Below are positions 15,813-39,106 of a stretch of 44,359 nt of DNA, piece by piece. The position numbers were made by a program, and so were the translations under genes. This DNA comes from Nitrososphaeria archaeon. Lineage in GTDB: Archaea > Thermoproteota > Nitrososphaeria > JACIWG01. Position 1 is the first letter of the stretch; every line of letters begins with the position of its first letter. Under the pieces are notes generated by a model that made no database searches, was not told the DNA's origin, and was given only the letters and a program-made list of their open reading frames with translations. The DNA lies in NCBI GenBank assembly GCA_029776125.1, contig JARVJS010000021.1, positions 1 to 44,359 on the forward strand, written 5' to 3'.

Positions 15813-15848
15813 CTATCTATCACCTCCTTTTTATGCTGAAATTTATAT

Positions 15849-15904: not shown

Positions 15905-15905
15905 G

Positions 15906-16193: not shown

Positions 16194-16212
16194 ATTTCCT
16201 CCTTATTGCTTT

Positions 16213-22655: not shown

Positions 22656-24678
22656 CCATCTTTTTCTTTTGACCCGTTGAACATATCAAATCTTGCCCAG
22701 CAAGTCTGATAGTTTGCATTATAGTTGACGCTGCAGGAAAATCGTCCTGACACCTACAGTCTGCTACTATCTCTTCTCCCTGCAAGGTAGGACATATAAA
22801 TGTACCGCTGTCGTTTCTTTCGCACTTTCTGTTTAGGTATACGTAATCACCCTGTATATTTGTATGCATCGAACTTATCACGCCTGAAAAACTTACCTGC
22901 GTATTTTCTCTATTAACTCTAACCTTGCATGTATACTCGCAATCGCTACCTTCCGGCATTGGCGTAAGTTTTATCTTTCTGTCTGGATATTCCTGCCAAG
23001 AACCCTGCTGTTTAAGTGTATCGGTGTAGATAAGTTCTCCTTTTTGTTTGTCAAAGTTCACGCTTGGAACTACTGTTGATACCTTATGTCCTGCATCCGA
23101 AAGATCAAAACTTCCTTGACTGTCACACTTATAAGTTCTCTCAATGCTCCAGTATTCTGGACAAACATACTGATTGCAGATAAGTTGACAGGATTTAAGA
23201 GGTTGTAAGCCTGTTTTTACCCCGCTTCTTACGGTATAAGTTCCGTTGACTTTTTCATTCCACAATTTACAGTCGCTTCTGTTTTCAACTTGCTGACAGG
23301 TATTATTATCGGAAAAAATAACCTCACAGGCATCTTTGACTCTTATCGTTATGATTGCGTATCCTTCACCACAACCAGCCACTGCAACTTTTACGAAAGA
23401 CTGTAAAAGAGTATTTGGAGGATAGCTTCTAAACAGATTTGTCAAATCCAAATTCGGATATCTTTTCCATGAAGTTCTAAGCTCGCAATCCCCTGGTGGG
23501 CTTGTAGACCCTCTGTCAGTCCACGGATAAGGTCCGGAATAAATCAGTCTCTCGTTAAGCCACACCTGAATCCAGTCGTCCCACGCAACGTATTCAAGCA
23601 CTGCTGATTCAATTAGGTCTGGTCGTTTTAACCTGAATGTATGAGATAGTTCGTGAATCTCGCAATCCCCACACCAGTAGTTATCACCTTCCCAACCTAA
23701 TATTACCTGGATACATCCCGGTTCTCCATTTAAACAATTACGATAAGACCCGCCATTGCCTTCAACAGATTCTATTATGTCTTCGGGACGAATTATTTGT
23801 CCTTCGTAAGAAGTCTTAGTAATCTGGCAGGTTACAAAATCACTCTGAGAAGCACCCGATAAGATAAGATTATATTTACTTTCAGGATCCCTGCTTTGAT
23901 TAAAAACCTCACTTTCTACCTGCATTTTAAATATAGCATCAGAGGTTTTGCTAAAATATCTCTCTGGAAAATTCTCTCCTCCTGAAATAGCAGGTAAATT
24001 GCAGTTTGAATAATCCTGCCCATAAAAATAAATAGAAGTGTCTACAATTCTGCTGTTTGATATGGCTACCCTTGAGTCTCCCCTGAAGGCACTTGCTACT
24101 GCTCCACCAATTGTTTTTACTACAACAGGCAGGTTGCTCATAACAATGTTGTTACCACAAGATTTATTAATACAATAACACCCCGATAAATCTGACAGTT
24201 CTGCTTCTGCTATATATAAATTCCCGTCTCTGTAAGCGAACTTTTTAGGTAAACAGTTGTCCCAAGTTCCTGGAGTGCACGTTATAAAACCATTTGTACA
24301 TATTCCGCTCACATTATCTATTGTAAGTTGTCTGTCTATTTGTCCGTTCATGTCAGAATCCCAGTACACAAAAACTTTTATATCTCCAGTACTTTTTGGT
24401 TGAATGTTAACCGTAAGATACTCTTTACTGCTGGGACAGGCCACTTGTGGATTGAAAGTTGTTTGTCTGTCTATAGTGGTCATATCGCCACCGCCAAGCA
24501 GTGGTCCGATAAGATTTCTTTGTAGCGTTTCCTGAGTGCCACCAAAATTTTTAAAATTATCGTACATTTCCTTTGCCTTTTGTTCAGGACTAACCTGTTC
24601 GTCAGCAAAAACATTAAATGTTAAGCACAAACTAACTGCTAAACCTGCACCTAACCATTTCCTCAATAGCCTCTTCAT
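22609..24678 (-). CDS. Secreted Cys-rich protein of unknown function, located between traC and traN
   Basis: 689 aa. Clear signal peptide MKRLLRKWLGAGLAVSLCLTFNVFA and many Cys residues. The segment VAWDDWIQVWLNERLIYSG is faintly PA14/GLEYA-like. It overlaps both neighbours by 47 nt. Confidence 0.6.
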   Translation of the reverse strand: MKRLLRKWLGAGLAVSLCLTFNVFADEQVSPEQKAKEMYDNFKNFGGTQETLQRNLIGPLLGGGDMTTIDRQTTFNPQVACPSSKEYLTVNIQPKSTGDIKVFVYWDSDMNGQIDRQLTIDNVSGICTNGFITCTPGTWDNCLPKKFAYRDGNLYIAEAELSDLSGCYCINKSCGNNIVMSNLPVVVKTIGGAVASAFRGDSRVAISNSRIVDTSIYFYGQDYSNCNLPAISGGENFPERYFSKTSDAIFKMQVESEVFNQSRDPESKYNLILSGASQSDFVTCQITKTSYEGQIIRPEDIIESVEGNGGSYRNCLNGEPGCIQVILGWEGDNYWCGDCEIHELSHTFRLKRPDLIESAVLEYVAWDDWIQVWLNERLIYSGPYPWTDRGSTSPPGDCELRTSWKRYPNLDLTNLFRSYPPNTLLQSFVKVAVAGCGEGYAIITIRVKDACEVIFSDNNTCQQVENRSDCKLWNEKVNGTYTVRSGVKTGLQPLKSCQLICNQYVCPEYWSIERTYKCDSQGSFDLSDAGHKVSTVVPSVNFDKQKGELIYTDTLKQQGSWQEYPDRKIKLTPMPEGSDCEYTCKVRVNRENTQVSFSGVISSMHTNIQGDYVYLNRKCERNDSGTFICPTLQGEEIVADCRCQDDFPAASTIMQTIRLAGQDLICSTGQKKKMDETGKAVFLPPPSLP

Positions 24679-27184
24679 AACTCATCCCCTGGTTTACCAT
24701 TTTTTGAATTTCTGCTATCTCTGTTGGATTAGAGGTATAAATATAATATGAATATGGATCAACCATTAGTCTTACAACGCCTACGCCAAAATTATCAGTA
24801 TGTATAAATATTTCCGAATACTTAGGAGCGTTATATTTAATTGAGTTAAGAATACTTAGCGTAAACTCATCGTAATCTATAAGTTTTTTATCCTTCGCTA
24901 AAACAAAATCTCCACTTTCAAGAAAAAATTTAAAGGCAGAGTTTGAGTTTATAACTCTACCTACCCTACCAAACTGTTCAAGGTCAAGTATTGACTGAGT
25001 TATTATTCCAAAACTGCCTTTGTATTTTCTTGCTCTACGATAACCTTCTTCAATAACATTCTGAAAGACTTCTGTATCCTGCAAAAACTGCCACGCTTCA
25101 TCAACGATAACCATTCTTGGATTTGCTCTGTCACTTAAATATAAGTCCATTGTTACTGCATTTAAAACTTGCAAAACAATTACCTTAAATAAATCAGGCA
25201 ACGCCTTAAGGTGTTCAAGTTCCAAAACTACAAAATCGTCATTGGCTATATCAAAAGTAGACTCACCATTAAACCACTTACCATAAATACCTGTTGAGGT
25301 AAATTTGTTAAGATTGAACGCCAAATGGGTAGCTATTAGTTTAAAATCTTCTAAACACACTTCTTTACCTTCGCAAAGTATATCTCTACCATCGTAGTAT
25401 TTAGGAAATTCAGCTAAATACAGTTGAATGTGATCAATGCTTGTTTCTTTGCCCATTTTTTCTATTGCCCACCTTACAGCAGAATTTAGTAAATTAACAA
25501 TACTTTCGTGGTTTACTCCCTGTGGTAATTGCCCTGTAGAAGATATAGCCATTTGCAAAATTATGTTCGATATAACAGGTATATCATATTGAGGGTCTTT
25601 TATATGTGAAAAAGGATTAATACATATATCACTATCAGAGGAAAACTCTAAATACTTCCCATTGAACATTTTAGCTAATTTTTTATAGCTTCCACCTATA
25701 TCAACAATTCTAATCTTAACTCCTGCACCGTAATAATTCGTTACTATATAGTTTGTCGTAAAGGATTTTCCTTTACCTGTTGGTGCAGCTATGTAAAAAT
25801 TATAGGAAGAACTCTTAGGGCTTAGTAAGTTTAATCCTACTACCTGCCCTTTTCTGCCCATAAATAAAAGCATCGGTTCTCCTGTACCTACATAATCTGC
25901 CTGAACAGGAGCCAAAACAGGCAAAGTATCAATAGGAACAATAAAATCTCTATCTAAAAGAGTAAGAGTATTTGAATCAGCAAAACATCCAAAAGGCAAA
26001 CTATAGGTAAAAAGAGGAGTCAATATGGTAGAGTCCTCTTGCATTACTGCACCAGTTGACTCCCATATTTTAATTATTCTATATATAGCAGTTCTTGTTT
26101 GCTCTTCATCTTCAGAATACGCCCATATTATTGGAACAATTCTAAAAAACTTTTCACCTCTTTCTACTTTGTCTACTGCCCAGAAAAACTCTTCCTGCTT
26201 CCTCTTTAAACTCGCAATAAACGAACCAAAAGACTGCTGACCCAGCACTAAATTTGCCTTCCCATGTATTTTCATCTTTAAATCTTCTACAAAAATGTTC
26301 AAAGTTATCCAAAAAGGCGTGTTTATCTGAGATATGTCTCCACTTATTCCATCGTAACTACCTGAAATTTTGTTTGCCCAAAAGAAATCTACCTCTTGAG
26401 GCATTGATTTTACAGTTGCACACCTAAAATACTTAACCAAGTCAACTTCCTCTAGTAAATCTCCTCCATTTTGTTTTACTGTTCGAGTTTTTGCTTTAAT
26501 AAATCTTTTCTCTACTTCTATTTCTGTTTCTGCCAATATAGCCTGAGTGTTTATAGGAGCAGTTTTACACCATAAGTGAGTATTAGTGTCTATCCTTCCA
26601 TTTAATAACTGCCTAATAAACTTTAAATAGGTCTCAGGTCCGCACAAAACAGGAGCAAGATATGAAGATTGTAGTATTTCTTTAGTTGAAGCAATAATTT
26701 CCTTAATTAAATTTTCATCTACTTTTTTCACAGGCATCTTAACTGTAAAAAACAATCTAAAACTTCTTGCCGGTGGATTGCCAACCTTTTGATCTTCATA
26801 AAATTTTCTTAAACTCCTGTAAGATTTCTTTATGTAATCAGGTGCATATTGTTTGTAGTTTTGATAATAATCCATAAAATCTCTTACATCAGGGTCTGCA
26901 TACAAAATAAATTGCAAAATAGAGCCTTCAGGATAATTTATTTGAAATAAACCTTTAAAAGTTTGTATTGTTTGCTCACTAAAAAATAACACAGGCACGC
27001 ATTCGTATAATATTCCAACTGTATCATCCTGGTTATAAAAAATACCCATTTCCTCATCATAAGCAACCGGCAACAAATATTTACTAAACTTGTTTCTTTG
27101 TAATTCATTATGTATTTCTTTAACCTGCATTACATTTTTTTCATAACTTTCCTTTTTTAACCCTAGTGCTTCTAAAATATTCAC
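24632..27184 (-). CDS. traC: F-type TraC ATPase (VirB4 family)
   Basis: 850 aa. Walker A AAPTGKGKSF and Walker B-like MVIVDEAW. Size and position are typical of TraC. Confidence 0.9.
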   Translation of the reverse strand: MNILEALGLKKESYEKNVMQVKEIHNELQRNKFSKYLLPVAYDEEMGIFYNQDDTVGILYECVPVLFFSEQTIQTFKGLFQINYPEGSILQFILYADPDVRDFMDYYQNYKQYAPDYIKKSYRSLRKFYEDQKVGNPPARSFRLFFTVKMPVKKVDENLIKEIIASTKEILQSSYLAPVLCGPETYLKFIRQLLNGRIDTNTHLWCKTAPINTQAILAETEIEVEKRFIKAKTRTVKQNGGDLLEEVDLVKYFRCATVKSMPQEVDFFWANKISGSYDGISGDISQINTPFWITLNIFVEDLKMKIHGKANLVLGQQSFGSFIASLKRKQEEFFWAVDKVERGEKFFRIVPIIWAYSEDEEQTRTAIYRIIKIWESTGAVMQEDSTILTPLFTYSLPFGCFADSNTLTLLDRDFIVPIDTLPVLAPVQADYVGTGEPMLLFMGRKGQVVGLNLLSPKSSSYNFYIAAPTGKGKSFTTNYIVTNYYGAGVKIRIVDIGGSYKKLAKMFNGKYLEFSSDSDICINPFSHIKDPQYDIPVISNIILQMAISSTGQLPQGVNHESIVNLLNSAVRWAIEKMGKETSIDHIQLYLAEFPKYYDGRDILCEGKEVCLEDFKLIATHLAFNLNKFTSTGIYGKWFNGESTFDIANDDFVVLELEHLKALPDLFKVIVLQVLNAVTMDLYLSDRANPRMVIVDEAWQFLQDTEVFQNVIEEGYRRARKYKGSFGIITQSILDLEQFGRVGRVINSNSAFKFFLESGDFVLAKDKKLIDYDEFTLSILNSIKYNAPKYSEIFIHTDNFGVGVVRLMVDPYSYYIYTSNPTEIAEIQKMVNQGMSYEEAIEEMVRCRFSS

Positions 27185-27199
27185 TGCTATATCCTCCCA

Positions 27200-28096
27200 C
27201 TAATTATTATTCTTTTTTTTCCACATTGGAGAAGGTTCCAATGGATCAACGCTGGTTCCCTTTTGAAATTCGTAAATACCATACCTATCAGGACTTCCTC
27301 CAGACATAATCCTAATTGCCCTCGCAGTTCTCCGATATATCTCATCAAGAGAAATAACCCCTGCACTTATCGGCATATACTTGCCTGTTTTTTGATCTAC
27401 AACTATTATCGTAGGAGTTACTTCTACAGCAAACTGCTGTTGAGCAGATGGATTTCTCTCTACATCAACAACCTTTATAGGAATGCCATCCATCTCTGCG
27501 TATTTGAGTATTTTTAATTGCGTATCACAATACCCGCAGTCCTGTTTAACAAAGACTACATAACCAAATTCAGAAGCATTCTTCTGCTTGTAATCCTGCA
27601 ATTCTTTGCGTATAAGATCGTTTCGTTGAGTTATACCAGGACCAACAATTGGTATATCACGCTCTGTTGAAAGCTCGGGATATTTTTGCCAAACATAACC
27701 TGCATAATGAGAAAAAAGTAGTGCCTTTTTTCTCGCTACATCCTGCAAATTGTAAAACTCATAAACATTTTCTTCTGTAGGTTTTTGAACCGCTTTTTTT
27801 AAATAATAATCGTAGAGCTTGCTAAACTCATCAGGATGCATATAAAGCAGTTCTTCGTAAGAGTATTCTTTTAAAGGCTTAGGAGTAAATACCTGCTTTT
27901 GCTGTTCCTGAAAAGGCTCTTTTTTTGTCTCCTCTTCCTGTTTTTCCTCTTTCTTGTAAATATCCTCATACCACCACCAACCTTCTTTAGTTTTTCCTCT
28001 ATAATAAGAATCTACTTTCTTTTGCTCTTTGTCCTGCACTCCATTACTATGCACAGGAAAAACAAGAAAAATAATAATTAGAAAAACTACTACCAT
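27200..28096 (-). CDS. traF: F-type TraF (thioredoxin-fold pilus assembly protein), retains CxxC
   Basis: 298 aa. Signal peptide, EGWWWYED block and thioredoxin-like VVFVKQDCGYCDTQ ... VTPTIIVVD. Confidence 0.8.
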   Translation of the reverse strand: MVVVFLIIIFLVFPVHSNGVQDKEQKKVDSYYRGKTKEGWWWYEDIYKKEEKQEEETKKEPFQEQQKQVFTPKPLKEYSYEELLYMHPDEFSKLYDYYLKKAVQKPTEENVYEFYNLQDVARKKALLFSHYAGYVWQKYPELSTERDIPIVGPGITQRNDLIRKELQDYKQKNASEFGYVVFVKQDCGYCDTQLKILKYAEMDGIPIKVVDVERNPSAQQQFAVEVTPTIIVVDQKTGKYMPISAGVISLDEIYRRTARAIRIMSGGSPDRYGIYEFQKGTSVDPLEPSPMWKKKNNN

Positions 28097-28665
28097 ATTG
28101 GTAATAACCTCGCAAGTATTTTTTCTTTAGGAACCACTCCAAAATATTTACTGTCATAACTGTCTTTGTGAGTACCTACAACAAAATAAAATCCTTCGGG
28201 AATTCTATATTCGCACTTTTCTGTAGCACCACAAGGGTTATATGCTTTAACAGGTATTCCTGTTTTGCTATATTTTTTAGCCTTTCCTAAGTATTCACCC
28301 TTACAGTAGTAATCGTCATTATGAATTATTAAAGTTTCCCCACTTGAACAACCTATTTTTTTACTAATATTCATTCCTTTTGCAAAACAATCGTTTTTAT
28401 CTGTTGTTACCATTACATAATGCCCATTCTCCAAACCCTCTGGAACTATTTTCCAAAATATTTTATGATCAACAGAATTTCCATAACTTATTACAATTTT
28501 GCTTGATATAAAAAAACCTATTAACGCCATCATCGAAATTCCTGTAATCAAATTAATAAGTTTTTCAGGGTTTCTTAATGTCCTCTTTGATTTGCGTATC
28601 AGTATTTTCTGTTTTAGGTTTAACCCTCTCTGGAAGTTTCGGAGTAAGATTTTCAACTCTATCAC
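28090..28665 (-). CDS. S26-family signal peptidase-like protein (TraF-RP4/TrhF type, pilin maturation)
   Basis: The C-terminal VVGTHKDSYDSKYFGVVPKEKILARLLPIW matches the S26 box (SxDSRYFG). N-terminal anchor. The start is uncertain: the ORF overlaps trbI by 101 nt and the internal Met at 28533 would remove the overlap. Confidence 0.65.
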   Translation of the reverse strand: MIELKILLRNFQRGLNLKQKILIRKSKRTLRNPEKLINLITGISMMALIGFFISSKIVISYGNSVDHKIFWKIVPEGLENGHYVMVTTDKNDCFAKGMNISKKIGCSSGETLIIHNDDYYCKGEYLGKAKKYSKTGIPVKAYNPCGATEKCEYRIPEGFYFVVGTHKDSYDSKYFGVVPKEKILARLLPIW

Positions 28666-28927: not shown

Positions 28928-29635
28928 TTATTCTCCTTGTTTTAACATATTTTCAATGAGTGGAATATTAGCACCAAATACCATTCTGCCATTTATAAAA
29001 TATGTAGGTGTTCCTCTTATGCCAAACTTTTCAGCGGTTTCAAAATATTTTTTTATCGTTTCTTCAGATTTCTTCAAACACTCTGCAGAAACGTCCTGCC
29101 CATTTTTTAATCCAGACATAATTTCCATATATGCCTTTTCTTTATCTTTACTGCATAAAATGTAAGAAACTTTTTTCTTTGAAGTTTCCCCCTTAAAGGG
29201 CAAGAAAAATATGTGTTCTGTTACATCATTTCTCTTTGAAAAATATTCGTATCCCCTTTTACAGAAAGGACATTCAGGATCAGTAAAGGTTACGACCTTA
29301 TTTTTACCCTTACCCACCTTTACTGCTATAGATGTATCCATGTTTTTAAGTTTTTCAATTATTATTTCTTGCCTTCTTTCCGCAGTAAGCGATTTACCTG
29401 TTGATGTCCATATTTCACCAAATACCATGTAACCTCTTGGTGACCAATACATTATGTTCCCATCTGTAGTTATAATTTCGTATAAACCTGGGATTGGCGA
29501 CTCTGTTACTTTTGATAGAGAAAAATTAGGGAAAATTGCCTTAATTTGTTTTTCTACGTCTTCCTTAGATTGCTGAGCAAACACAACTGATACGAAAAGC
29601 AATACAAAAAATACTGAAAATAAAAGTTTCTTCAT
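28928..29635 (-). CDS. dsbC: Thiol:disulfide interchange protein DsbC-like
   Basis: 235 aa. Signal peptide, N-terminal dimerisation-like domain, active site TDPECPFCKR and a cis-Pro block GTPTYFING. Confidence 0.85.
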   Translation of the reverse strand: MKKLLFSVFFVLLFVSVVFAQQSKEDVEKQIKAIFPNFSLSKVTESPIPGLYEIITTDGNIMYWSPRGYMVFGEIWTSTGKSLTAERRQEIIIEKLKNMDTSIAVKVGKGKNKVVTFTDPECPFCKRGYEYFSKRNDVTEHIFFLPFKGETSKKKVSYILCSKDKEKAYMEIMSGLKNGQDVSAECLKKSEETIKKYFETAEKFGIRGTPTYFINGRMVFGANIPLIENMLKQGE

Positions 29636-29748: not shown

Positions 29749-31353
29749 TTAGTTAGCAGAAAACCAGATTTGAACGTATCCATCACCTGAATTTGCCCCT
29801 GACTGTGAACTCGTACAGTTAAATCCTGAACGACAATAACCAGAACCACCACCGCCTCCACCACCATTTCCATTTCCACCTGCACCACCGCCACCGCCAT
29901 ATCCGGCTCCACCGCCTCCGCCACCCCATTCATTTCCACCTGCACCGCCACAACCATAACCGCCACTACCACCATATTTAGTGTATGAGTAGTGAACATA
30001 TAAAATACCGCCTGAAAAATCAGATGACGCAGGTCCATATAAAACATTACTTCCATTATAATAACGACCCCTACCACCATAACCTAAAGAGCCATTGTCT
30101 CCATAATAAGTACTACCACTATATGTAAGCCCACCACCTGCACCACCATATCCACAAGCACCACCTCCACCTGAAGCATAACCACTTGAAGCATTACTAC
30201 CACCACCTCCGCCACCTGCTACACCCCAACCTGTGGTTCCTACCGAACCTCCACCATTTGTAGTACCACCACTTCCTTGACCACCGCCTCCACCACCTAA
30301 TCCTGCTTTATTTCCACCAGCACCTGCTGCAGTTCCGCCATAACCACCACTACCTCCACCTGCACTACCATTACTACTACCACCGCCACCAGAGCCACCT
30401 GCACCGTTATATCCGGCTCCACCGCCTCCGCCTGCTACAAGCAATATATTGCTGTAACCAACACTATCTATCCATACAGCAGATGCACCACCACCGCCAG
30501 CACCACCATACGCACTGGAATTATCACTTGTTCCATCAAAACCTTTCCCACCTACTAAAATTCTTAATGCTAAAGTTGTCCTATTTGGAAACATAGTGTT
30601 CAGGTCAGATATTTTAATTTTCCCTACAGTAACACCACCGTTACCACCTAAATATTGTATAGTTCCCACATTATTTACAGCATGACCACCTCTACCGCCT
30701 GCAACTATTATGTTTAAGTAATAATTACCACATCTAGACACATAATCTTGCCAATTATAAACAAAAAAATTCTTTAATCCATATTCAAAATAATTCACAT
30801 TATATAAATTCAAATTATTACAAAATACATCATCAGAAGTAGCACCGCCACCAGAGCCACCGCTACCACCTACGTCTCCATGAAATCCTTCTACCACTAT
30901 GTCGTTTCCCTGAACTTCTGTGTCTGTACAAGCAGTCTGAAAGGTTTTATCACGACCTGCAGAGATTACTCTGATTATCAATCCACTTTTTGGTGGTGTT
31001 GTATTGTTTTGTGAATAAGTAGGATTAGCAGTGTTTGGACTTCCTAAATCCCATGTGCAGTATCTATACTGAGTTCCCCATTCGTCTACCTTGCTCATAG
31101 GTAAATCTGCCGGAAGTGTATTGCCTGATGCTTCTTTAAGAGGTTCTTTAAAGGTATCATTGTCAGGATCTGCTGTATTCATGAGCAACCAATTGACAAT
31201 ATTTGTCATTCTTTGCTTTGTAAGCAAAGTTTTTTGTGTATCCGTCATCAGGTTCCATCCCGAAACAACTTCAACTAAAGTATATGCCAGAATCATTAAA
31301 AAAGCTACTGCAAGTAAAACTTCTATTAATATAAACCCGCTATCTTTTCTCAT
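29749..31353 (-). CDS. Pilin-like protein with a large C-terminal glycine-rich domain (candidate pilus tip adhesin)
   Basis: 534 aa. Class III signal MRKDSG/FILIEVLLAV (G-1, F+1, E+5). About 365 C-terminal residues consist of GGxGG runs interrupted by short beta-like segments (YYLNIIVAGGRGG, LALRILVGGKG, NILLVAGGGGGAG), ending in GDGYVQIWFSAN. Confidence 0.7.
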   Translation of the reverse strand: MRKDSGFILIEVLLAVAFLMILAYTLVEVVSGWNLMTDTQKTLLTKQRMTNIVNWLLMNTADPDNDTFKEPLKEASGNTLPADLPMSKVDEWGTQYRYCTWDLGSPNTANPTYSQNNTTPPKSGLIIRVISAGRDKTFQTACTDTEVQGNDIVVEGFHGDVGGSGGSGGGATSDDVFCNNLNLYNVNYFEYGLKNFFVYNWQDYVSRCGNYYLNIIVAGGRGGHAVNNVGTIQYLGGNGGVTVGKIKISDLNTMFPNRTTLALRILVGGKGFDGTSDNSSAYGGAGGGGASAVWIDSVGYSNILLVAGGGGGAGYNGAGGSGGGGSSNGSAGGGSGGYGGTAAGAGGNKAGLGGGGGGQGSGGTTNGGGSVGTTGWGVAGGGGGGSNASSGYASGGGGACGYGGAGGGLTYSGSTYYGDNGSLGYGGRGRYYNGSNVLYGPASSDFSGGILYVHYSYTKYGGSGGYGCGGAGGNEWGGGGGGAGYGGGGGAGGNGNGGGGGGGSGYCRSGFNCTSSQSGANSGDGYVQIWFSAN

Positions 31354-32342
31354 TTTCCTGCCTTTTTAATAACAAAAACACTTAAACCATCTGCTTTTTC
31401 TGCGGTAAAAATTGGAGTCTTTTTCTCAAACCTTAGTTTGTTTTCAACATGCTCATGCTGATTTTCTCCTGTAACTATGTAAATTAACTTGTCGTTTGAA
31501 CAATAAAACACTTTCCCTATTCCTTCTACATTAACAACAGAACAGTGATTCTTTAGGTTTTCATTTACCGCCTGCACTCTGTCTTTGTAAACTATTAGTT
31601 CAGTATTTTTCTTTTTTATTTCTTCTCTTAATTTTTCGTTCTCCATTGTTAGGCTTTCAACTTGAACTGCCATACTTTTGTACTTCTGTAATTCCTCACG
31701 AAGCCTCTTTATGGTTTCGTCCTTTTCTGTAAAAATACTATAATTTTCCCTGCGTTCTTCTTCTATTTGTTGTAATGTTTTATTGTGGCTGCTATCCAAC
31801 TGTTGAATTGCTTTTTCTTTTTCCTTTAATTGCCGTTGTAAATTTTTAATCGTGTTTTCAAAATCCTTAATTTTTGCTTCTAATTCTTTCTTTTCCTGTT
31901 CTATCTTTATGTTTTTTTGTTCAAGCTCCTTTTGCTGTTTTTTTTGTTTTTCTTTTAAAACTTTTTTATGTGCATCACAAATTAATTCAGGATACTCTAC
32001 AATACATCCGTCCACCTCATCACCGTTATTAACAGATAGCCTTTTACCTAAAGAATTAATAACTATAATTTTCCCATTTACAACCCCTTTGATTTGAGGA
32101 AAATTTTCTTTGCCTGCAGACACAGGTTCAGGCATTTTAGTTAAAGGCATTGGAGGAGGTATAGCTTCAGGCTTTTTGTCTACCGTTTCTGATTGTTGAA
32201 ATTTTGCTTTCTTACTACTTCCACTTTTATCTTGACCTGTCTTATTTTGACCTGAGTTATAAAAAGGTGTTTCAACTGCCAAAGCTATATGCCACATAAA
32301 AAACAAAAACATTAATACTAAAATATTTAGCCTTTTTCTCAT
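31350..32342 (-). CDS. Secreted coiled-coil protein, possible PilP/GspC-like pilus alignment component
   Basis: 330 aa. Signal peptide. IKGVVNGKIIVINSLGKRLSVNNGDEVDGCIVEY resembles the PilP/GspC HR beta-domain. It is followed by a coiled coil of about 130 aa. Functional call is weak. Confidence 0.4.
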   Translation of the reverse strand: MRKRLNILVLMFLFFMWHIALAVETPFYNSGQNKTGQDKSGSSKKAKFQQSETVDKKPEAIPPPMPLTKMPEPVSAGKENFPQIKGVVNGKIIVINSLGKRLSVNNGDEVDGCIVEYPELICDAHKKVLKEKQKKQQKELEQKNIKIEQEKKELEAKIKDFENTIKNLQRQLKEKEKAIQQLDSSHNKTLQQIEEERRENYSIFTEKDETIKRLREELQKYKSMAVQVESLTMENEKLREEIKKKNTELIVYKDRVQAVNENLKNHCSVVNVEGIGKVFYCSNDKLIYIVTGENQHEHVENKLRFEKKTPIFTAEKADGLSVFVIKKAGK

Positions 32343-32791
32343 TTTACATACACCTCTTTTTCTTTTTTAGGAATTACTGTAAAACTTACTACTCTTTCTC
32401 CACAGTTTATACCTAAACACAAATTAGAGTATTCAATCTTATAAGGAAAACTACTGATAAAATCTAAAAAGGATAAAAACTTTTCATATTCTTCTTTGTT
32501 TATTAATATTTCCTTTTTGTTTGAAAACAAAATAAAACCTTCATTACCTTGTTGTACTTCAATGGGCAAATTGTTGCTTCTTATATAATTTTCAAGTACT
32601 TGTTTTATAAAAATAGACTCTCCAGAGGAAAGACTCACAAAATCTTTTTTTAGATTTATTTTTATATCCTGATTTAAAACTCTCTGAACATCATTTTTAT
32701 AAAAAATAATGCTATATATAAGCAAAAAAACACCGCTACATACTAAAATCAAGGGAAAAAACAACCTTATTATTTTCATAAGTTCCTCCAT
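32339..32791 (-). CDS. Bitopic membrane protein, possible PilO/GspM-like
   Basis: 150 aa. One N-terminal TM (IIRLFFPLILVCSGVFLLIYSIIF) and a small periplasmic domain. The assignment rests on operon context only. Confidence 0.35.
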   Translation of the reverse strand: MEELMKIIRLFFPLILVCSGVFLLIYSIIFYKNDVQRVLNQDIKINLKKDFVSLSSGESIFIKQVLENYIRSNNLPIEVQQGNEGFILFSNKKEILINKEEYEKFLSFLDFISSFPYKIEYSNLCLGINCGERVVSFTVIPKKEKEVYVK

Positions 32792-33557
32792 GCATTTCTA
32801 AAAACTTTTGTGCTGACATTTCTTTGTCAAAATATACTTCTACAACAAATTTTTTATCACTCTGATATATCTTTAAAATTTTTCCATCCTCTATACTCTT
32901 TTCAACTTTATTGAGTAAATCTGCCAAACTGATTTTTGCAGAAGTGGAAACATTAACTTGCGACATTAACTGATTCTGTCGATTTTTTAAAATTAAATCT
33001 TTTTTGTTGTACGCTTCGTTCAATACAAAAAAATAAGTTAACAATCCCACAAAAAAAACCACTAAACCAATACTTAAATAAGACTTGTTGTCAAGAGACC
33101 AACGCAATCTAAGTTGTTTAGGTATTTTACCTACTGATAAAAGCAAATCTTCATTAATTTCTACGCCACTTTCAGGCTTTTTATAGGTTATTACATGTTG
33201 AATTTCATTGCCTTTGCTAATAAAATAGTGGTAGAACTCTTTATTTTTATCCTTTAGATAATAATCTCCTTCCCCCATAAAAACAACGCTTAATACAGGA
33301 AACTTTCCCTTAACAAAATTTTTTGACTTGCCTGCTATAAATAACAAAACTCCATTTTTGTATGTGTAGGTATAGTAAAAATTATCGCCTAAAATGGGGA
33401 TACATCTTCCCTTAATGTAGTTCTCTATTTCCCGCTTGGGAATAACTACGCTTTCAGCAACATACTCTTCAAGATGAACAAAATCTTTAAGCTTTTTTTT
33501 CTCTGAGACTTGAACCCGATCGTCAATCTTTGTTTCACTTTTTTTCCTCTTAAACAT
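32736..33557 (-). CDS. Bitopic membrane protein, possible PilM-N/GspL-like
   Basis: 273 aa. About 155 aa cytoplasmic, TM YLSIGLVVFFVGLLTYFFVL, then a periplasmic tail. SD AAGGAAGG. First gene after motif copy 8. Context-based call. Confidence 0.35.
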   Translation of the reverse strand: MFKRKKSETKIDDRVQVSEKKKLKDFVHLEEYVAESVVIPKREIENYIKGRCIPILGDNFYYTYTYKNGVLLFIAGKSKNFVKGKFPVLSVVFMGEGDYYLKDKNKEFYHYFISKGNEIQHVITYKKPESGVEINEDLLLSVGKIPKQLRLRWSLDNKSYLSIGLVVFFVGLLTYFFVLNEAYNKKDLILKNRQNQLMSQVNVSTSAKISLADLLNKVEKSIEDGKILKIYQSDKKFVVEVYFDKEMSAQKFLEMHGGTYENNKVVFSLDFSM

Positions 33558-33628: not shown

Positions 33629-34798
33629 TTAATTCCCCATTCCCATCATCAACTTCAAATAAGGAACAAATACTGAGAAAAAGGTTAACAGGAAAATACC
33701 CATAACCATAACTAAAGAAATTGTATAAATTAATGGAGATAGCAACCGAATAGCAGATATGTATTTATCATAAAAACGTCTCGCTACTATTTCAAAGTTC
33801 TTTGAGAGTTTGTCTACATTTAAAGACCAACCAACAATTTGTTTATCAAATTCAGGTATTGTTTTGAATCCATTAACAAAAGGTTCCCCCTTCTTTAATT
33901 TCTTTAATGCGCTTTCAAACTCATCACGAACTACTTTTATTGAAATTGTTTTACTAACTATCTCAAAAGCACTAGACAGCCTAATGCCAACTGACAATAA
34001 TTTGGACATGGAAAAAAAACCAATAAAATATGCACGATAAAATAATAGTTCCCTAATTAAAGGAAGTCTTAAAAATTTACTCTCAATAAATTTTTGATTT
34101 ATTCTATAAATTATCAAAGCTACAAAAATTAGCCCTACAAAAAAAATTAACGCTAGAGGAATACCAATAGAAGCAATTTTGAGAAAGTTTATTGCCCACA
34201 CATTTGGTGAACTAGATATTAATACACTTTTAAACAACTCAGAAGACAATAGTTTAGGAATTATAACCCTTGTATTTATTATTAACAAAAGTAAACTTAT
34301 CATAAACACTGTGACTGGATAAGACAACTTCTTTAATATCTCTTTCTTAGTTGTGTGTAAATCAATTAAATACTGCGAAACTACGTTTAAAGTTTTCGAC
34401 AAATCTCCCGTATTATACCCCGCTTTTAACATTTGTACCGCTGTTTCGCCAAAATAAACACTGTAGCCCTGTATTGCTTCAGGAAAACTTTTACCCGACT
34501 CTATCATTTTCTTAATGTTTAAAAATACCTGTTTATAAGGACTTTTATAACTTATTGACTTTACTAAAGAATCTATGGCATTTGAAAGAGACATGCCTGA
34601 CGTTAAAATGTCAGATAATGCTTGAAAAATATACGCTAATTCTAACTGCTTATACTTAATTATATTTACTGAATGAATCTTTTTTATTTTTAAAACTACC
34701 TTACCTTCTTTCGAAAAAGTTTTATAAATTTCATCTCTGTTTCCAACAAATATTTCCACGAATTTAGCGTTATTTTTAAAATACTCTACCCTATACAA
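33629..34798 (-). CDS. Type IV pilus/T2SS platform protein (PilC/GspF family)
   Basis: 389 aa. Two GspF-like repeats, each followed by TM segments, and three or more TM helices in total. Lies directly downstream of the ATPase. Confidence 0.85.
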   Translation of the reverse strand: MYRVEYFKNNAKFVEIFVGNRDEIYKTFSKEGKVVLKIKKIHSVNIIKYKQLELAYIFQALSDILTSGMSLSNAIDSLVKSISYKSPYKQVFLNIKKMIESGKSFPEAIQGYSVYFGETAVQMLKAGYNTGDLSKTLNVVSQYLIDLHTTKKEILKKLSYPVTVFMISLLLLIINTRVIIPKLLSSELFKSVLISSSPNVWAINFLKIASIGIPLALIFFVGLIFVALIIYRINQKFIESKFLRLPLIRELLFYRAYFIGFFSMSKLLSVGIRLSSAFEIVSKTISIKVVRDEFESALKKLKKGEPFVNGFKTIPEFDKQIVGWSLNVDKLSKNFEIVARRFYDKYISAIRLLSPLIYTISLVMVMGIFLLTFFSVFVPYLKLMMGMGN

Positions 34799-34810
34799 AG
34801 CAACCCTCTC

Positions 34811-36337
34811 TTAATTTGCGTGGCCTATTGACTCTGCAAAATTAAGTAACTCTATTCCTAAAACTCTTTTAATCTCTTCTTTATTGGTTATGCCTTGACT
34901 AACCTTGTATACTGCGTCTTCATACATAGTGTAATAAGGCAACTTTCCTTCCATTAAAGCAATAACTTCTTTATAGCTATTAAATCTAACTATTTCAGAA
35001 ATCATAGTTCTCCCCATATATCCAATCCCTGAGCAAAAAGAACAACCTACTCCAAAACAATTTTTACAAATTTTTCTTACGAGTCTTTGAACTAGTATTC
35101 CTTTTAGCAGAAACGACAGCGCTGTCATGTCTACGCCTAAACCTTGAAGCCTTATTAACGTTGAAGGAATGTCGTTTGTATGTAATGTAGAAAAAACTAG
35201 ATGCCCTGTGTCTGAAAGTGTTAAAGCATTCACTGCCGTCTCTCTGTCTCTTATTTCACCAACTATAATTACATCTGGGTCGTGCCTTACTATTGTCTTT
35301 AAATACATAGCAAAATCAAAACCCGCTTTTCTGTTTATCTGTACCTGATTTATAAAAGGAAGATGATACTCAATAGGGTCTTCTATGGAGTAAACTGTTT
35401 TGTGGATTCTGTCAAGCCACTGCACCGTTGCATACAAGGTGGTTGTTTTCCCTGACCCTGTAGGACCACAAACCAAAACTAAACCTGTCTGCTGAGAGGA
35501 AATTTCCAACCAATCGTTTATCTTGGTAAGCCCTAATTCATTTATATCTAAAAGCATTTTTTCTCTATCAAGTAATCTTATGGATACTTTCTCTCCATTT
35601 GCCGAAGGTAATGTAGCCACTCTTAAATTTATTAACCTGCCACAATAAGAATAAGAAAACGAACCATCCTGCGGTAGCCTCGTTTCTGAAACGTCCATCC
35701 CTGCACGATTTTTAATTGCAGTTACAAGTAAAGAATGTATTTCTATAGGTAAATACATTTTTATATACAAAACACCATCTATTCTATATCTAATTATTAC
35801 CACTTTTTCCTGCGGTTCTATGTGTATGTCAGATGCTCTGCTGTTTAACGCGTCTAAAAACAATTCATTTGTTGCAAGTATAGTTTCCTCTCTTTCTAGT
35901 AAAGATTTAACCCTGTAATCAATGTCATAAACCTTTACATTTTTCATCTCCAAATATTTTTGATAAAGTAAATTAGCAGGATAAGAAACCAACTGCACAA
36001 TCTTGCCTCTTGCATACTGCTCTACAATTTGCTTTGCTTCCATAGGAGAATCATGCAGAGTTGCTACATATAAAGTTTGTCCTGTATCTCCTAAAACTAC
36101 AGTTTTTGTATCTAGCAATATGTCAAGAGGTATATCAAAGGACGAAAAATTCTCTCCAATTAACGCTTCAGGACAAATTACGCAAAGTGCGTTTAATATG
36201 TGCTGCCTTTTGACAAAATTTAACCTTATAAGTATTTCTCCAAGCTTTTCACCCGTTATTTCCTGCTGCTTAAGCGCTATTTCAAGCTGTTCTTCGTTTA
36301 TTATCCCTTGCTGTAGTAAATACTCTCCAAGTCTCAT
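34811..36337 (-). CDS. Type IV pilus/T2SS assembly ATPase (PilB/GspE/MshE family) with MshEN N-terminal domain
   Basis: 508 aa. Walker A GPTGSGKTTT, Asp box and His box regions, tetracysteine CKNC ... CSFC. The N-terminus RLGEYLLQQGIINEEQLEIALKQQ fits the published 24-residue MshEN motif exactly. Confidence 0.9.
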   Translation of the reverse strand: MRLGEYLLQQGIINEEQLEIALKQQEITGEKLGEILIRLNFVKRQHILNALCVICPEALIGENFSSFDIPLDILLDTKTVVLGDTGQTLYVATLHDSPMEAKQIVEQYARGKIVQLVSYPANLLYQKYLEMKNVKVYDIDYRVKSLLEREETILATNELFLDALNSRASDIHIEPQEKVVIIRYRIDGVLYIKMYLPIEIHSLLVTAIKNRAGMDVSETRLPQDGSFSYSYCGRLINLRVATLPSANGEKVSIRLLDREKMLLDINELGLTKINDWLEISSQQTGLVLVCGPTGSGKTTTLYATVQWLDRIHKTVYSIEDPIEYHLPFINQVQINRKAGFDFAMYLKTIVRHDPDVIIVGEIRDRETAVNALTLSDTGHLVFSTLHTNDIPSTLIRLQGLGVDMTALSFLLKGILVQRLVRKICKNCFGVGCSFCSGIGYMGRTMISEIVRFNSYKEVIALMEGKLPYYTMYEDAVYKVSQGITNKEEIKRVLGIELLNFAESIGHAN

Positions 36338-36343: not shown

Positions 36344-36874
36344 TTAAAACCTTACCATCCAATAGGTAACTATAACCTGTGTAGCTGTGTCTGGATCTGT
36401 CATGTTAGAAGAACTTGGACAAGTAGTGTTGTAATAAATTTTATTTGGATAATTAAGCGCCAAATCTTTTATTGTTTTAAACACTTCTGATGAACTTGTT
36501 ACAGCAGGAGTTTTTACGCAAACATAATATCCACTATCGTTTTTAAACATTAAATAACCATTTACCCCATAAGAAGTATCAAGCTCAGAAGACACCTTCG
36601 GTGGCATCAGAAAGGAAGGCACAAAATTAGTGTCAGACAATAAATTACTTGCGTGCGTAGGGTAATCATTTTTCGTGGTAACAAAAAAACCAAGTGCACT
36701 TTCCATTGCAGTAAAATCTGAAATCAATCTTGACTGTAATGTTTTCTTCTTGTTTTCTGCCATGTTTACATTAACAAGTGGTACTACAATAGCAATTATT
36801 AACGCCAATAAAGTTACCACCACTACTAATTCAATCATTGTAAATCCAGTATTACTCATTAACCTTTTTTTCAT
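36344..36874 (-). CDS. Type IV pilin/pseudopilin (second)
   Basis: 176 aa. MKKRLMSNTG/FTMIELVVVV (G-1, F+1, E+5). SD AGGAGAGG. Confidence 0.8.
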   Translation of the reverse strand: MKKRLMSNTGFTMIELVVVVTLLALIIAIVVPLVNVNMAENKKKTLQSRLISDFTAMESALGFFVTTKNDYPTHASNLLSDTNFVPSFLMPPKVSSELDTSYGVNGYLMFKNDSGYYVCVKTPAVTSSSEVFKTIKDLALNYPNKIYYNTTCPSSSNMTDPDTATQVIVTYWMVRF

Positions 36875-36890
36875 TTTTCCTCTCCTCTTA

Positions 36891-36921
36891 CAAGAAGCGA
36901 GGGGGTTTCCCTCGCTTCTTG
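36891..36921 (-). other. 13-bp-stem GC-rich hairpin filling the gap between the two pilin genes
   Basis: CAAGAAGCGAGGG-GGTTT-CCCTCGCTTCTTG, a perfect stem. No U-tract follows on the minus strand; the SD of the next pilin follows immediately. Confidence 0.6.
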
Positions 36922-37455
36922 CTATTTTGCTACTACCTGTTTTAATGCAATGTTGTTAGTGCCATCATTGTAACATTGTATGCTTTTGCCAGTTGTAACA
37001 GCATTGGGAATAGCATCGTTTTCTCCCGCTCCTGCATAAAGATGGTTAATCTTTTTGCACACATCATCCGTAATCCCCTCAAGCAATATCACCGTGTCTT
37101 TAGTTGTTGATCCACCTAAATTATAATTAGTAGTATCAACTGTGTAGGCAAATGTTCCTGAATAGCCTGATTTTTTAGCAGCTGATGGTGGTTCTGGTTT
37201 TGCCTTTAGTATTCCCTCCGTCACTATTGCATCAATACTTGCAGGCTCAGTAGTCTTAGAAACGTAATACTGATTCCACGCTTCATCAAGAACTCTCAAG
37301 TTGTCTGCAATCTGTACAGCAGAAGACTGAACTGAAGTTTTCTGCAATGGATTACCAAGAAAACTGAAAAGCAAAACCGCAATTAGAGCAAGAACAATGA
37401 TGACAATCAGTAACTCCAGCAGTGTAAACCCCTTCTCATTTCTTAATGCTTTCAT
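36922..37455 (-). CDS. Type IV pilin (probable major subunit)
   Basis: 177 aa. MKALRNEKG/FTLLELLIVIIV (G-1, F+1, E+5). SD GGAGGTA. Followed by a strong hairpin. Confidence 0.85.
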   Translation of the reverse strand: MKALRNEKGFTLLELLIVIIVLALIAVLLFSFLGNPLQKTSVQSSAVQIADNLRVLDEAWNQYYVSKTTEPASIDAIVTEGILKAKPEPPSAAKKSGYSGTFAYTVDTTNYNLGGSTTKDTVILLEGITDDVCKKINHLYAGAGENDAIPNAVTTGKSIQCYNDGTNNIALKQVVAK

Positions 37456-39055: not shown

Positions 39056-39106
39056 TTTTGCCTCTTTTTTAATTTGTTTTTGAACTATTTGCATTTTTTG
39101 TATTTT

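What the first reader, a model, noticed from the sequence alone, without database searches (positions are those of the whole stretch)
29749..31353. Pilin-anchored 365-residue polyglycine-type domain: candidate novel pilus tip adhesin
The product has a canonical prepilin signal (G/FILIE). Its globular part consists of long GGxGG tracts separated by short hydrophobic beta-like segments (IIVAGGRGG, ILVGGKG, LLVAGGGGGAG) and ends in GYVQIWF. This pattern resembles the glycine-rich domains found in phage receptor-binding proteins. The T-even gp38 adhesins form polyglycine-II sandwiches, and many uncharacterised tail-fibre proteins carry a similar glycine-rich domain. It occupies the operon position that PilV, the recipient-specificity adhesin, holds in R64-type thin-pilus clusters. 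A phage-RBP-like glycine domain displayed on a conjugative type IV pilus has not been described, to my knowledge.
Basis: partly seen in the sequence, partly recalled or inferred. Interest (0 to 1): 0.8.

Follow-up and report, generated by a model that had tools for sequence, protein, structure and literature searches.

The report
Conjugative pilus tip pilin, glycine-rich head
This gene encodes a type IV pilin whose anchor half is fused to a rare glycine-rich domain resembling the ligand-binding domain of ALK receptors. It belongs to a family of pilus-tip proteins, found on conjugative DNA-transfer elements, that exchange phage-tail-fibre-like heads and so probably choose which cells receive the DNA.

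Summary
Window 29749-31353 (-) is a real 534-aa gene with a G|FILIE prepilin signal, a pilin module (aa 1-160) and a 363-aa C-terminal region that is 36% glycine.

It is the last gene of a type IV pilus operon embedded in an F-type conjugation cluster.

The pilin module defines a family: 57 cluster representatives reach E<=1e-10. They share this module and carry different C-terminal modules, many of them phage tail-fibre-like. A sibling element (L090) is syntenic gene for gene but has an LCCL module where the window gene has the glycine-rich domain.

The glycine-rich part matches only Pfam ALK_LTK_GRD and Gly_rich_2, always below threshold. Its single detectable homologue (P0082) also lies in a type IV pilus cluster. 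AlphaFold could not fold this domain because the alignment was too shallow, so a PGII-type fold is likely but unproven.

The protein is not a member of the R64 PilV family, and there is no shufflon.

The pilin + PF12810 architecture is already listed, without comment, in a 2021 survey of modular pilins.

Verdict: a new variant of a known kind (modular tip pilin). The more interesting result is the family context. A role in recipient recognition is inferred, not shown.

The parts
29749..31353 (-). Gene for the 534-aa modular (bimodular) type IV pilin
   Evidence: ORF. The start codon overlaps the upstream stop and has an RBS-like GGCAGGA. An identical protein occurs on an independent Logan contig, L087.
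31336..31353 (-). Class III (prepilin) leader MRKDSG; predicted cleavage after Gly6, leaving F1...E5
   Evidence: Sequence. Pfam N_methyl E 8e-4 to 6e-3, 16.6-19.3 bits against a cutoff of 21.2. Gly6 is nearly invariant in the family alignment.
30874..31335 (-). Pilin module (aa 7-160): long alpha-1 helix, small beta-sheet, DxDxD..E motif (D62, D64, D66, E70) and Cys99/Cys142
   Evidence: AlphaFold2 with a 58-sequence alignment gives pLDDT 96-98, helix 5-58 and strands 97-100, 125-131, 152-157. There are 57 relatives at E<=1e-10, 39-48% identical among the closest hits.
30838..30873 (-). Flexible linker (VGGSGGSGGGAT, aa 161-172)
   Evidence: Sequence. Family homology ends here.
29752..30837 (-). 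C-terminal glycine-rich module (aa 173-534, 36% Gly, six Cys), in which beta-like hydrophobic strands alternate with Gly runs; ends in GDGYVQIWFSAN
   Evidence: The only homologue is P0082.
30376..30711 (-). Core (aa 215-326) that matches Pfam ALK_LTK_GRD positions 12-128 of 243
   Evidence: E 1.8e-4, 22.0 bits, gathering cutoff 24.5; E 5.5e-4 with another cut-out. The same model region is hit by P0082 at E 3.6e-5, 24.3 bits. hhalign against human ALK gives E 7.9e-4, probability 25%. Block alignment.
29848..29973 (.). Imperfect tandem repeats (periods 27, 33 and 60 nt) inside the last Gly-rich stretch; a sign of expansion by slippage
   Evidence: TRF. P0082 lacks about 160 aa of the Gly-rich stretches.
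31350..32342 (-). 330-aa secreted coiled-coil protein encoded directly upstream
   Evidence: Of the eight relative loci compared by tblastn it gave no hit in any, although L090 has a 283-aa gene at the same position.
32339..33557 (-). Two conserved single-TM accessory proteins (273 aa and 150 aa) that precede the modular pilin in related cassettes
   Evidence: tblastn synteny in L084, L085, L086, L090, L092, L093, L094 and L095.
33629..36337 (-). Platform protein (T2SSF) and assembly ATPase (T2SSE)
   Evidence: Pfam E 6e-30 and 6e-97.
36344..37455 (-). Two 176/177-aa pilins, candidates for the major subunit
   Evidence: N_methyl and the TIGR02532/GspG/ComGC models.
37490..39094 (-). Secretin
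   Evidence: Pfam Secretin 1.3e-19; best NCBIfam model MshL.
28928..29635 (-). DsbC-type disulfide isomerase immediately downstream; the pilin has 8 Cys
   Evidence: Pfam DsbC_N and Thioredoxin_2. The same position is occupied in L090 and L093.
6511..28665 (-). F-type conjugation genes flanking one side of the pilus operon: S26 peptidase, TraF, TraC, two TraN-like, TraU, TrbC, TraE, TraK, TraB, TraV, TraH, TraG
   Evidence: Pfam.
41797..43164 (-). Type IV coupling protein (TraD/TraG-like), flanking the other side of the pilus operon
   Evidence: Pfam TraG-D_C, TrwB_AAD_bind and T4SS-DNA_transf.

Best explanation
The gene encodes a modular minor pilin of an accessory type IV pilus carried by an F-type conjugative element.

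Proposed mechanism:
1. A prepilin peptidase cuts after Gly6. No such peptidase is encoded in the window, so it is presumably supplied by the host (inferred).
2. The N-terminal alpha-helix and small pilin domain insert the protein into the pilus, which is built by the adjacent ATPase, platform protein and secretin.
3. A 363-residue module hangs off the pilin through a GGSGGSGGG linker, so the protein can sit only at the pilus tip, probably as the first subunit assembled (inferred by analogy with CofB/TcpB, S. sanguinis PilB and R64 PilV).
4. The C-terminal module is a divergent, expanded member of the ALK/LTK-type TNF-like plus glycine-rich (polyglycine-II) domain superfamily. It acts as the ligand-binding head, recognising a surface structure on recipient cells and holding mating pairs together before DNA transfer by the F-type system (inferred).
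5. Specificity changes by replacing the whole head module, not by a shufflon.
For: Shown:
- The gene is real and translationally coupled.
- The pilin fold is predicted at pLDDT 96-98.
- The operon runs secretin, pilin, pilin, ATPase, platform, 273 aa, 150 aa, 330 aa, this gene. It lies between the coupling protein and DsbC/TrhF/TraF/TraC/TraN....
- The pilin module is shared by 57 cluster representatives (E<=1e-10), 164-1453 aa long, with unrelated C-termini.
- Those C-termini include Peptidase_S74 (5), Laminin_G_3 (4), Shufflon_N (3), Gp53-like_C (2), Collar, LCCL and Gly_rich_2. They also match 76 PHROG families, mostly tail fibre or baseplate.
- Sibling element L090 (GC 0.33) is collinear from secretin to TraN at 33-67% identity. 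The only exception is the 330-aa coiled-coil gene, which has no detectable homologue. Similarity in this gene stops at aa 158, and an LCCL module follows.
- The same cassette with a modular pilin lies next to tra/virB genes in L091, L093, L094 and L095.
- A second family member, P0035, carries a bona fide Gly_rich_2 domain (E 3e-15) next to TraV.
- In L095 the pilin tip is the target of a diversity-generating retroelement, which is the hallmark of a ligand-binding surface.

For the glycine-rich domain:
- Across 13 cut-outs the only Pfam families found are ALK_LTK_GRD (E 1.8e-4 for the window protein, 3.6e-5 for P0082, same model region) and Gly_rich_2. With the extra Gly insert removed the match is end to end, 20-223 of 226.
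- hhalign against ALK (sequence verified) gives E 7.9e-4 in the same register.
- The sole homologue, P0082, is a Sec-signal protein encoded next to a 430-aa pilin in another type IV pilus cluster. This is a fusion/fission pattern linking the domain to pilus tips.
Against: - All Pfam matches of the glycine-rich domain are below the gathering threshold, and the hhalign probability is only 25%.
- Both AlphaFold models leave the domain at pLDDT <50, so no fold was obtained and no Foldseek test of PGII was possible.
- There is no match to phage families or phage genomes for this particular domain, and none to solved structures by sequence.
- Part of the Gly-rich region arose by recent tandem duplication and may be disordered.
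- No prepilin peptidase or retraction ATPase is found in the window.
- Some cassettes of this family show no conjugation genes within 10 kb (L085, L086, L092). The pilus type is therefore not exclusively conjugative.
- Tip location, ligand and role in mating are all inferred.
Confidence: 0.6

Rival explanations
1. The pilus and its glycine-rich tip serve general adhesion (to surfaces, biofilm matrix, minerals or a eukaryotic host) or aggregation of donor cells. They do not serve specific recognition of recipients. The element benefits only indirectly.
For: Related cassettes in L085, L086 and L092 have no tra genes within the available flanks. L086 lies beside sugar-nucleotide and glycosyltransferase genes and looks chromosomal. 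Modular pilins studied so far (S. sanguinis PilB and PilC) bind host proteins and glycans (PMC8179133).
Against: In the window and in L090, L091 and L093 the cassette sits inside the tra operons. In L094 and L095 it lies beside VirB8/VirB9/TrbI genes. Head swapping between sibling elements and DGR targeting fit a changing target such as cell-surface polysaccharides. Known plasmid-borne type IV pili (IncI1, IncI2, PAPI-1) act in recipient recognition (PMC12282955, PMC9045228, PMC5297154).
Confidence: 0.22
2. The glycine-rich region is not a folded domain. It is an intrinsically disordered, low-complexity tail (a spacer or 'sticky' polymer brush) that grew by repeat expansion on a minor pilin.
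For: AlphaFold pLDDT is <50 throughout. Tandem repeats occur in the last Gly stretch. The full-length protein gives no Pfam hit. Matches to PDB are only Gly-Ser linkers.
Against: The low pLDDT is expected from a 2-sequence alignment and is not evidence of disorder. The first 150 residues of the region have regular hydrophobic strands that are conserved with P0082 (41% identity, including ASAVW, LLVAGGGG and GYV.IW). These strands match the strand/Gly-run order of ALK. Six Cys residues and an adjacent DsbC suggest a disulfide-bonded fold.
Confidence: 0.13
3. The cluster is a type II secretion-like pseudopilus, and the protein is a pseudopilin tip (GspK-like) or a secretion substrate carrier. 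On this view it is not an extracellular pilus adhesin.
For: The pilins score best with GspG, GspH and ComGC models. The top Foldseek matches are GspG pseudopilins, although not significant (E 0.4). No retraction ATPase is present.
Against: There are no GspC/L/M or GspH/I/J/K homologues. The secretin scores best with the MshL pilus model. The head modules in the family are tail-fibre-like binding domains up to 2,500 aa long, which is hard to reconcile with a periplasmic pseudopilus.
Confidence: 0.05

Closest known systems
PilV tip adhesin of the IncI1/IncI2 (R64, TP114) thin type IV pilus
   Same: It is a large minor pilin encoded at the end of a plasmid-borne pilus operon. A constant N-terminal part carries a variable C-terminal part that selects recipients through surface LPS (PMC12282955, PMC9045228). 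Some members of the window's family carry the Shufflon_N stalk motif in their C-terminal modules.
   Different: There is no Shufflon_N match in the window protein. The pilin module is not detectably related beyond the signal. The pilus machinery differs and is not type IVb R64-like. No rci or shufflon is present. Variation is by whole-module replacement, and in one relative by a DGR. The host element is F-type, not MPF_I.
Modular pilins (S. sanguinis PilB with vWA, PilC with lectin; Raynaud et al. 2021, PMC8179133)
   Same: The design is the same: a small pilin module, a short linker and a grafted functional module, probably exposed at the tip. That paper's Dataset S1 already lists IPR012902-PF12810, IPR012902-IPR030392 (S74) and IPR012902-IPR007001.
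   Different: Those proteins are chromosomal adhesins of a monoderm. The GRD and S74 architectures were only counted there, and S74 was read as a 'peptidase'. No link to conjugation or to phage receptor-binding modules was made.
CofB/TcpB minor pilins with the secreted partners CofJ/TcpF (type IVb pili of ETEC and V. cholerae; own knowledge, CofB also cited in PMC8179133)
   Same: These are tip-located initiator pilins with bulky C-terminal domains. A secreted protein docks on the tip. P0082 (a secreted GRD next to a large pilin) compared with the fused window protein looks like the same partnership in split and fused forms.
   Different: There is no sequence similarity. Their C-terminal domains are beta-repeat and beta-sandwich. 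Trimer formation was not tested here.
ALK/LTK extracellular TNF-like + glycine-rich domain (PF12810; PDB 7MZW, 7LS0, 7NX0) and the phage counterparts Pam3 gp24 and S16 gp38
   Same: The order of the hydrophobic strand / Gly-run units is the same (Y.I..GA.GG; L.ILVG..G; GGGGGA..V.; L..AGGGG..Y). These are the only Pfam families matched. In phages this fold is the distal receptor-binding tip (PMC9608196).
   Different: Scores are below the family thresholds. The window domain is about 160 aa longer because of extra Gly-rich stretches. There is no structural confirmation and no direct hit to phage GRD proteins.

Membership tests
Type IV pilin (class III signal peptide proteins) | Short basic leader ending in Gly, then a hydrophobic residue at +1 and Glu at +5, followed by an approximately 20-residue hydrophobic alpha-1N | tested here: met
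   MRKDSG|FILIEVLLAVAFLMILAYTLV. Pfam N_methyl gives 16.6-19.3 bits against a cutoff of 21.2, so it is borderline by HMM.
Type IV pilin (class III signal peptide proteins) | Pilin fold: an extended N-terminal helix packed on an antiparallel beta-sheet | tested here: met
   AlphaFold2 gives pLDDT 96-98 for aa 11-160, with helix 5-58 and three strands. Foldseek's best hits are GspG pseudopilins but are not significant (E 0.4).
Type IV pilin (class III signal peptide proteins) | Encoded with, and assembled by, a T2SSE ATPase, T2SSF platform and (in diderms) a secretin | tested here: met
   All three are in the same operon. Actual assembly is not testable here.
Type IV pilin (class III signal peptide proteins) | Processing by a prepilin peptidase | not testable with these tools
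   No Peptidase_A24 gene was found among the window ORFs. The enzyme is presumably supplied by the host.
Modular pilins (Raynaud et al. 2021) | A pilin module followed, through a linker, by an additional module not specific to pilus biology | tested here: met
   Family homology ends at about aa 160-175. A GGSGGSGGG linker follows, then an unrelated 363-aa module.
PilV / shufflon adhesins (Pfam Shufflon_N, PF04917) | Shufflon_N constant region | tested here: not met
   No hit even at E<=10. hhalign of the pilin-module profile against R64 PilV aligns only 21 signal residues, probability 0.5%.
PilV / shufflon adhesins (Pfam Shufflon_N, PF04917) | Invertible 3' segments with sfx repeats and an adjacent rci recombinase | tested here: not met
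   Only chance AT-rich inverted repeats were found. DsbC follows the gene directly, and the only integrase is 24 kb away.
ALK/LTK glycine-rich domain (Pfam PF12810) | HMM match at or above the gathering score (24.5 bits) | tested here: inconclusive
   Scores are 20.4 and 22.0 bits (E 5.5e-4, 1.8e-4) for aa 215-326. The full-length protein gives no hit. P0082 gives 24.3 bits.
ALK/LTK glycine-rich domain (Pfam PF12810) | TNF-like beta-sandwich interleaved with a lattice of polyglycine-II helices | tested here: inconclusive
   Both models have pLDDT <50 in this region. The strand / Gly-run order agrees with ALK.
Phage / bacterial Gly_rich_2 (Pfam PF21722) | HMM match at or above the gathering score (24.3 bits) | tested here: not met
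   Only 14.9 bits (E 0.026), and only after deleting aa 321-399, though the match then covers 20-223 of 226. hhalign against the Gly_rich_2 domain of P0035 finds nothing.
T-even gp38 adhesins (PGII sandwich) | Sequence or structural similarity to gp38 | tested here: inconclusive
   No PHROG, PDB-sequence or phage-genome hit. A structural comparison was not possible for lack of a confident model.

The most novel reading that the evidence does not exclude
A widespread, so far undescribed class of conjugation-associated type IV pili uses one conserved pilin module as a universal socket for receptor-binding heads. These heads would come from the same pool that phages use for tail fibres: intramolecular-chaperone fibres, collar domains, glycine-rich tips and DGR-diversified tips. 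Plasmids/ICEs and phages would then exchange host-range determinants. The ALK-type glycine-rich head in this window would be the recipient-recognition device of one such element.
Probability: 0.4. Interest if true: 0.8.

Novelty: new variant of a known kind. Interest (0 to 1): 0.6.

Why it matters
Which cells a conjugative element can reach is a central question for the spread of genes in nature. So far it is understood only for TraN-OMP pairs and for IncI-type PilV shufflons.

This locus shows an environmental F-type element with an accessory type IV pilus whose tip pilin carries an exchangeable head. Relatives carry phage tail-fibre modules, and in one case a DGR-mutated tip, at the same position. 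This points to a second, modular route to recipient specificity and a shared module pool between phages and conjugative elements.

It would also give the bacterial ALK-like glycine-rich domain, whose function outside phages and animals is unknown, a concrete and testable role.

Tried and rejected
- The word-indexed homologue search was swamped by poly-Gly words. The full-length query found only itself. A 147-aa sub-region found nothing. A spliced two-sequence profile found only P0082.
- A genome-contig scan with the protein found nothing. The second scan, with the ATPase, returned only chromosomal PilB at <=38% identity (41% over one partial match) and was uninformative.
- tblastn of the protein or its pilin module against PLSDB plasmids gave no match. 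The two glycine-rich domains against GenBank phages also gave none.
- PDB sequence searches returned only Gly-Ser linkers, geopilin signal regions and a chance hit.
- AlphaFold of the glycine-rich part with 2 sequences gave pLDDT 34, which is unusable. The full-length run solved only the pilin module.
- Foldseek on the full-length model gave no significant hit. I did not search with the low-confidence domain model, because the matches would be meaningless.
- The idea that the pilin module is a PilV homologue was rejected. The Shufflon_N hits in relatives map to their C-terminal stalks.
- The closest plasmid TraC (Desulfosarcina sp. BuS5, 43.5%) has no pilus cassette in its tra region.
- The host organism could not be identified. 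There is no tRNA in the window, and the assembly accessions were not found in papers.
Full report
**1. The observation**

A 534-codon ORF lies on the minus strand at 29749..31353, the coordinates given. Its ATG overlaps the stop codon of the upstream gene (…GGCAGGAAAATGAGA…). All neighbouring genes are on the same strand.

The product starts MRKDSG|FILIEVLLAVAFLMILAYTLV. This has Gly at -1, Phe at +1, Glu at +5 and a hydrophobic helix. Pfam N_methyl scores just under threshold (16.6-19.3 bits against 21.2).

Residues 1-165 are 8% Gly and residues 166-534 are 36% Gly. Local GC rises to 43% in a window of about 33% GC.

Part of the last Gly stretch is an imperfect tandem repeat at the DNA level (29848-29973). 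An identical protein occurs on an independent short-read assembly contig (L087).

**2. Surroundings**

Reading along the minus strand, the window carries the following genes:
- a type IV coupling protein and two HD-domain proteins;
- a secretin, two ~177-aa pilins, a T2SSE ATPase and a T2SSF platform protein;
- three small or unknown proteins (273, 150 and 330 aa), then this gene;
- DsbC, an S26 peptidase, TraF, TraC, two TraN-like proteins (one with an SLH domain), TraU, TrbC, TraE, TraK, TraB, TraV, TraH and TraG;
- an integrase.

So a complete type IV pilus operon is embedded in an F-type (SXT/IncH-like) conjugation cluster, and this gene is its last member. R64 pilV also follows all the pilus machinery genes, ahead of only the shufflon and its recombinase.

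The two machineries otherwise differ. The window has no PilL/M/O2/P, transglycosylase or prepilin peptidase. No tRNA gene is present. The closest plasmid TraC (43.5%) is from a Desulfosarcina plasmid that has no pilus cassette.

**3. The N-terminal half is a conserved pilin module that carries interchangeable heads**

An exhaustive HMMER scan of 1.84 billion cluster representatives gave 198 hits at E<=1e-3 and 57 at E<=1e-10. Of the 149 other proteins listed, 148 match only residues ~1-175; the closest are 39-48% identical. The remaining one is P0082. These proteins are 164 to 1453 aa long.

The module has a nearly invariant DxDxD..E motif, a WG..Y(C)TWD motif, an ISAG.D motif and a Cys pair. 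With this alignment AlphaFold2 predicts residues 1-160 as a canonical pilin, with helix 5-58 plus a sheet at pLDDT 96-98. Foldseek's best matches are GspG pseudopilins but are not significant.

The C-terminal parts of the relatives are unrelated to one another. Among the top 57 plus P0082, Pfam finds Peptidase_S74 (the intramolecular chaperone of tail fibres and spikes; 5 proteins), Laminin_G_3 (4), Shufflon_N (3), Gp53-like_C tail fibre (2), phage tail Collar, LCCL and Gly_rich_2. PHROGs finds 76 families at E<=1e-5, down to 1e-60. These are overwhelmingly annotated as tail fibre, long tail fibre distal subunit or baseplate wedge.

**4. Genomic context of the relatives**

- L090 (an NCBI assembly, GC 0.33) is a sibling element. 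From secretin to TraN the genes are collinear with the window at 33-67% identity. The exception is the 330-aa coiled-coil gene, whose counterpart shows no similarity. In the modular pilin, similarity stops at residue 158 and an LCCL-containing head replaces the glycine-rich one.
- L093 has the cassette with a 1276-aa S74 tail-fibre-like pilin, followed by DsbC and TraL-E-K-B-V-C-N.
- L091 has TraV, the cassette, and a pilin (P0035) with a bona fide Gly_rich_2 domain (E 3e-15).
- L094 has the cassette beside VirB8/VirB9/VirB10 genes, with a Gp53-like head.
- L095 has the cassette beside TrbI. Its 935-aa pilin is followed by bAvd and a reverse transcriptase. A template repeat differs from the 3' end of the pilin gene at nine positions, all of them adenines in the template. 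This marks a diversity-generating retroelement aimed at the pilin tip.
- Three further loci (L085, with a 2528-aa pilin; L086; L092) show the cassette without conjugation genes in the available flanks.

The family is therefore frequently, but not always, part of conjugative elements, and the head is the variable part.

**5. The glycine-rich head**

The full-length protein gives no Pfam, PHROG or PDB hit for this region, probably because of the composition filters. Cut-outs give hits to only two families, both glycine-rich domains:
- ALK_LTK_GRD for residues 215-326 (E 5.5e-4 and 1.8e-4; 20.4 and 22.0 bits; gathering score 24.5; model positions 12-128 of 243);
- after removing residues 321-399, Gly_rich_2 end to end (20-223 of 226, E 0.026) and ALK_LTK_GRD end to end (12-238 of 243, E 2.8).

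The only homologue of this region anywhere is P0082 (282 aa; library-wide E 8e-8; 41% identity, with conserved ASAVW, LLVAGGGG and GYV.IW motifs). P0082 independently hits the same part of ALK_LTK_GRD at 24.3 bits (E 3.6e-5).

I wrote the human ALK domain from memory and checked it against PDB 7MZW and related entries. hhalign of the two-sequence profile against it gives E 7.9e-4 but a probability of only 25%. A three-way alignment shows the same order of strand / Gly-run blocks.

AlphaFold could not fold the region. pLDDT was 34 with a 2-sequence alignment and below 50 in the full-length run. This reflects the shallow alignment. It is evidence neither for nor against a PGII lattice.

There is no similarity to the Gly_rich_2 head of P0035 or to phage records. 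Published structures show that the ALK-type TNF-like plus glycine-rich unit is also the distal receptor-binding tip of phage Pam3 gp24 and resembles S16 gp38 (PMC9608196).

I put the probability that this is a folded ALK-type glycine-rich domain at about 0.7. Membership is not established.

**6. P0082 links the domain to pilus tips a second time**

P0082 has a Sec-type signal and no pilin part. It is encoded in a different, low-GC type IV pilus cluster, directly upstream of a 430-aa pilin.

Split in one locus and fused in another, the pair behaves like a Rosetta-stone fusion. It recalls secreted partners such as CofJ docking on the tip pilin CofB (own knowledge).

**7. Mechanism (inferred)**

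A host peptidase processes the prepilin, and the pilin module primes or caps the filament. The head is too large to fit anywhere but the tip, where it binds a surface structure of recipient cells and stabilises mating for the F-type system.

Most relatives lack Glu5, as expected for a first-assembled subunit. The window protein keeps it. Eight cysteines and the adjacent DsbC suggest disulfide-dependent folding. Specificity would change by head replacement (L090), or in a relative by DGR mutagenesis, rather than by a shufflon. No shufflon repeats or rci are present.

**8. Comparison with known systems and novelty**

In function it resembles R64/TP114 PilV (PMC12282955, PMC9045228). It fails the PilV membership tests: no Shufflon_N, no homology beyond the signal and no shufflon. 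It does meet the definition of a modular pilin (PMC8179133).

That paper's Dataset S1 already lists the architectures pilin-PF12810 (about 3-4 proteins), pilin-S74 (29) and pilin-Shufflon_N (177), and a PilY1 with PF12810. The bare architecture is therefore catalogued, though never discussed. S74 was read there as a peptidase.

Searches of the open literature found no paper on glycine-rich-domain pilins, pilin/tail-fibre fusions or DGR-targeted type IV pilins on conjugative elements. The nearest is DGR diversification of type V pilus adhesins in Bacteroides.

I therefore rate the gene itself as a new variant of a known kind. The family-level pattern is the part worth following up: a conjugation-linked pilus with plug-in phage-like heads.

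Noticed in passing
L095:12699-12784 (VR), 13761-13840 (TR), bAvd 12867-13724, RT 18573-19463: In a relative's locus, the 935-aa modular pilin P0012 is the target of a diversity-generating retroelement. All nine mismatches in the 53-nt repeat fall on template adenines. The same pilus cassette lies next to TrbI.
   Followed up: partly
L090:2526-21659: A sibling low-GC conjugative element is collinear with the window from secretin to TraN. It has an LCCL/Rxt3 head on the modular pilin in place of the glycine-rich head. GGDEF, SLT and CheW genes lie upstream of its secretin.
   Followed up: yes
window 18561-22655 (-): A 1364-aa TraN-like protein carries an S-layer homology (SLH) domain. This suggests a diderm host whose outer membrane is tethered through SLH domains, and a second, unusual mating-pair protein.
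   Followed up: no
window 15438-15812 (-): A 124-aa ORF with a signal-like N-terminus and two hydrophobic helices looks like a TraA-type F-pilin by eye. The element would then make both an F-like pilus and a type IV pilus.
   Followed up: no
window 39175-41807 (-): Two HD-domain proteins (one HD_5, HD-GYP-like) lie between the coupling protein and the secretin. They may provide cyclic-nucleotide control of pilus or transfer genes.
   Followed up: no
L081:8621-8890 and 13977-16108: In the P0082 locus, an 89-aa peptide with a twin-arginine-like signal and a Cys-rich C-terminus, plus two radical SAM/SPASM enzymes, sit inside or next to the type IV pilus cluster.
   Followed up: no
L085:9950-17536: A 2528-aa member of the same pilin family has no Pfam domain. 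It sits at the end of a syntenic pilus cassette in a 53% GC contig.
   Followed up: partly
L097:7944-13173: Family member P0007 lies in a tandem of three Laminin_G_3 proteins, with no pilus machinery genes within 10 kb.
   Followed up: no
L089:24791-26215 (R64 pilV): The C-terminal segment of this R64 PilV variant contains a strand / Gly-run string (LFIYASGGNGGSAGG) reminiscent of glycine-rich-domain units. This is an impression only, not tested.
   Followed up: no
window 43-5697 (-): Beyond TraG there is a tyrosine integrase and a DNA methylase, then capsule-synthesis, glycosyltransferase and polysaccharide-export genes. This is probably the edge of an integrative element.
   Followed up: no
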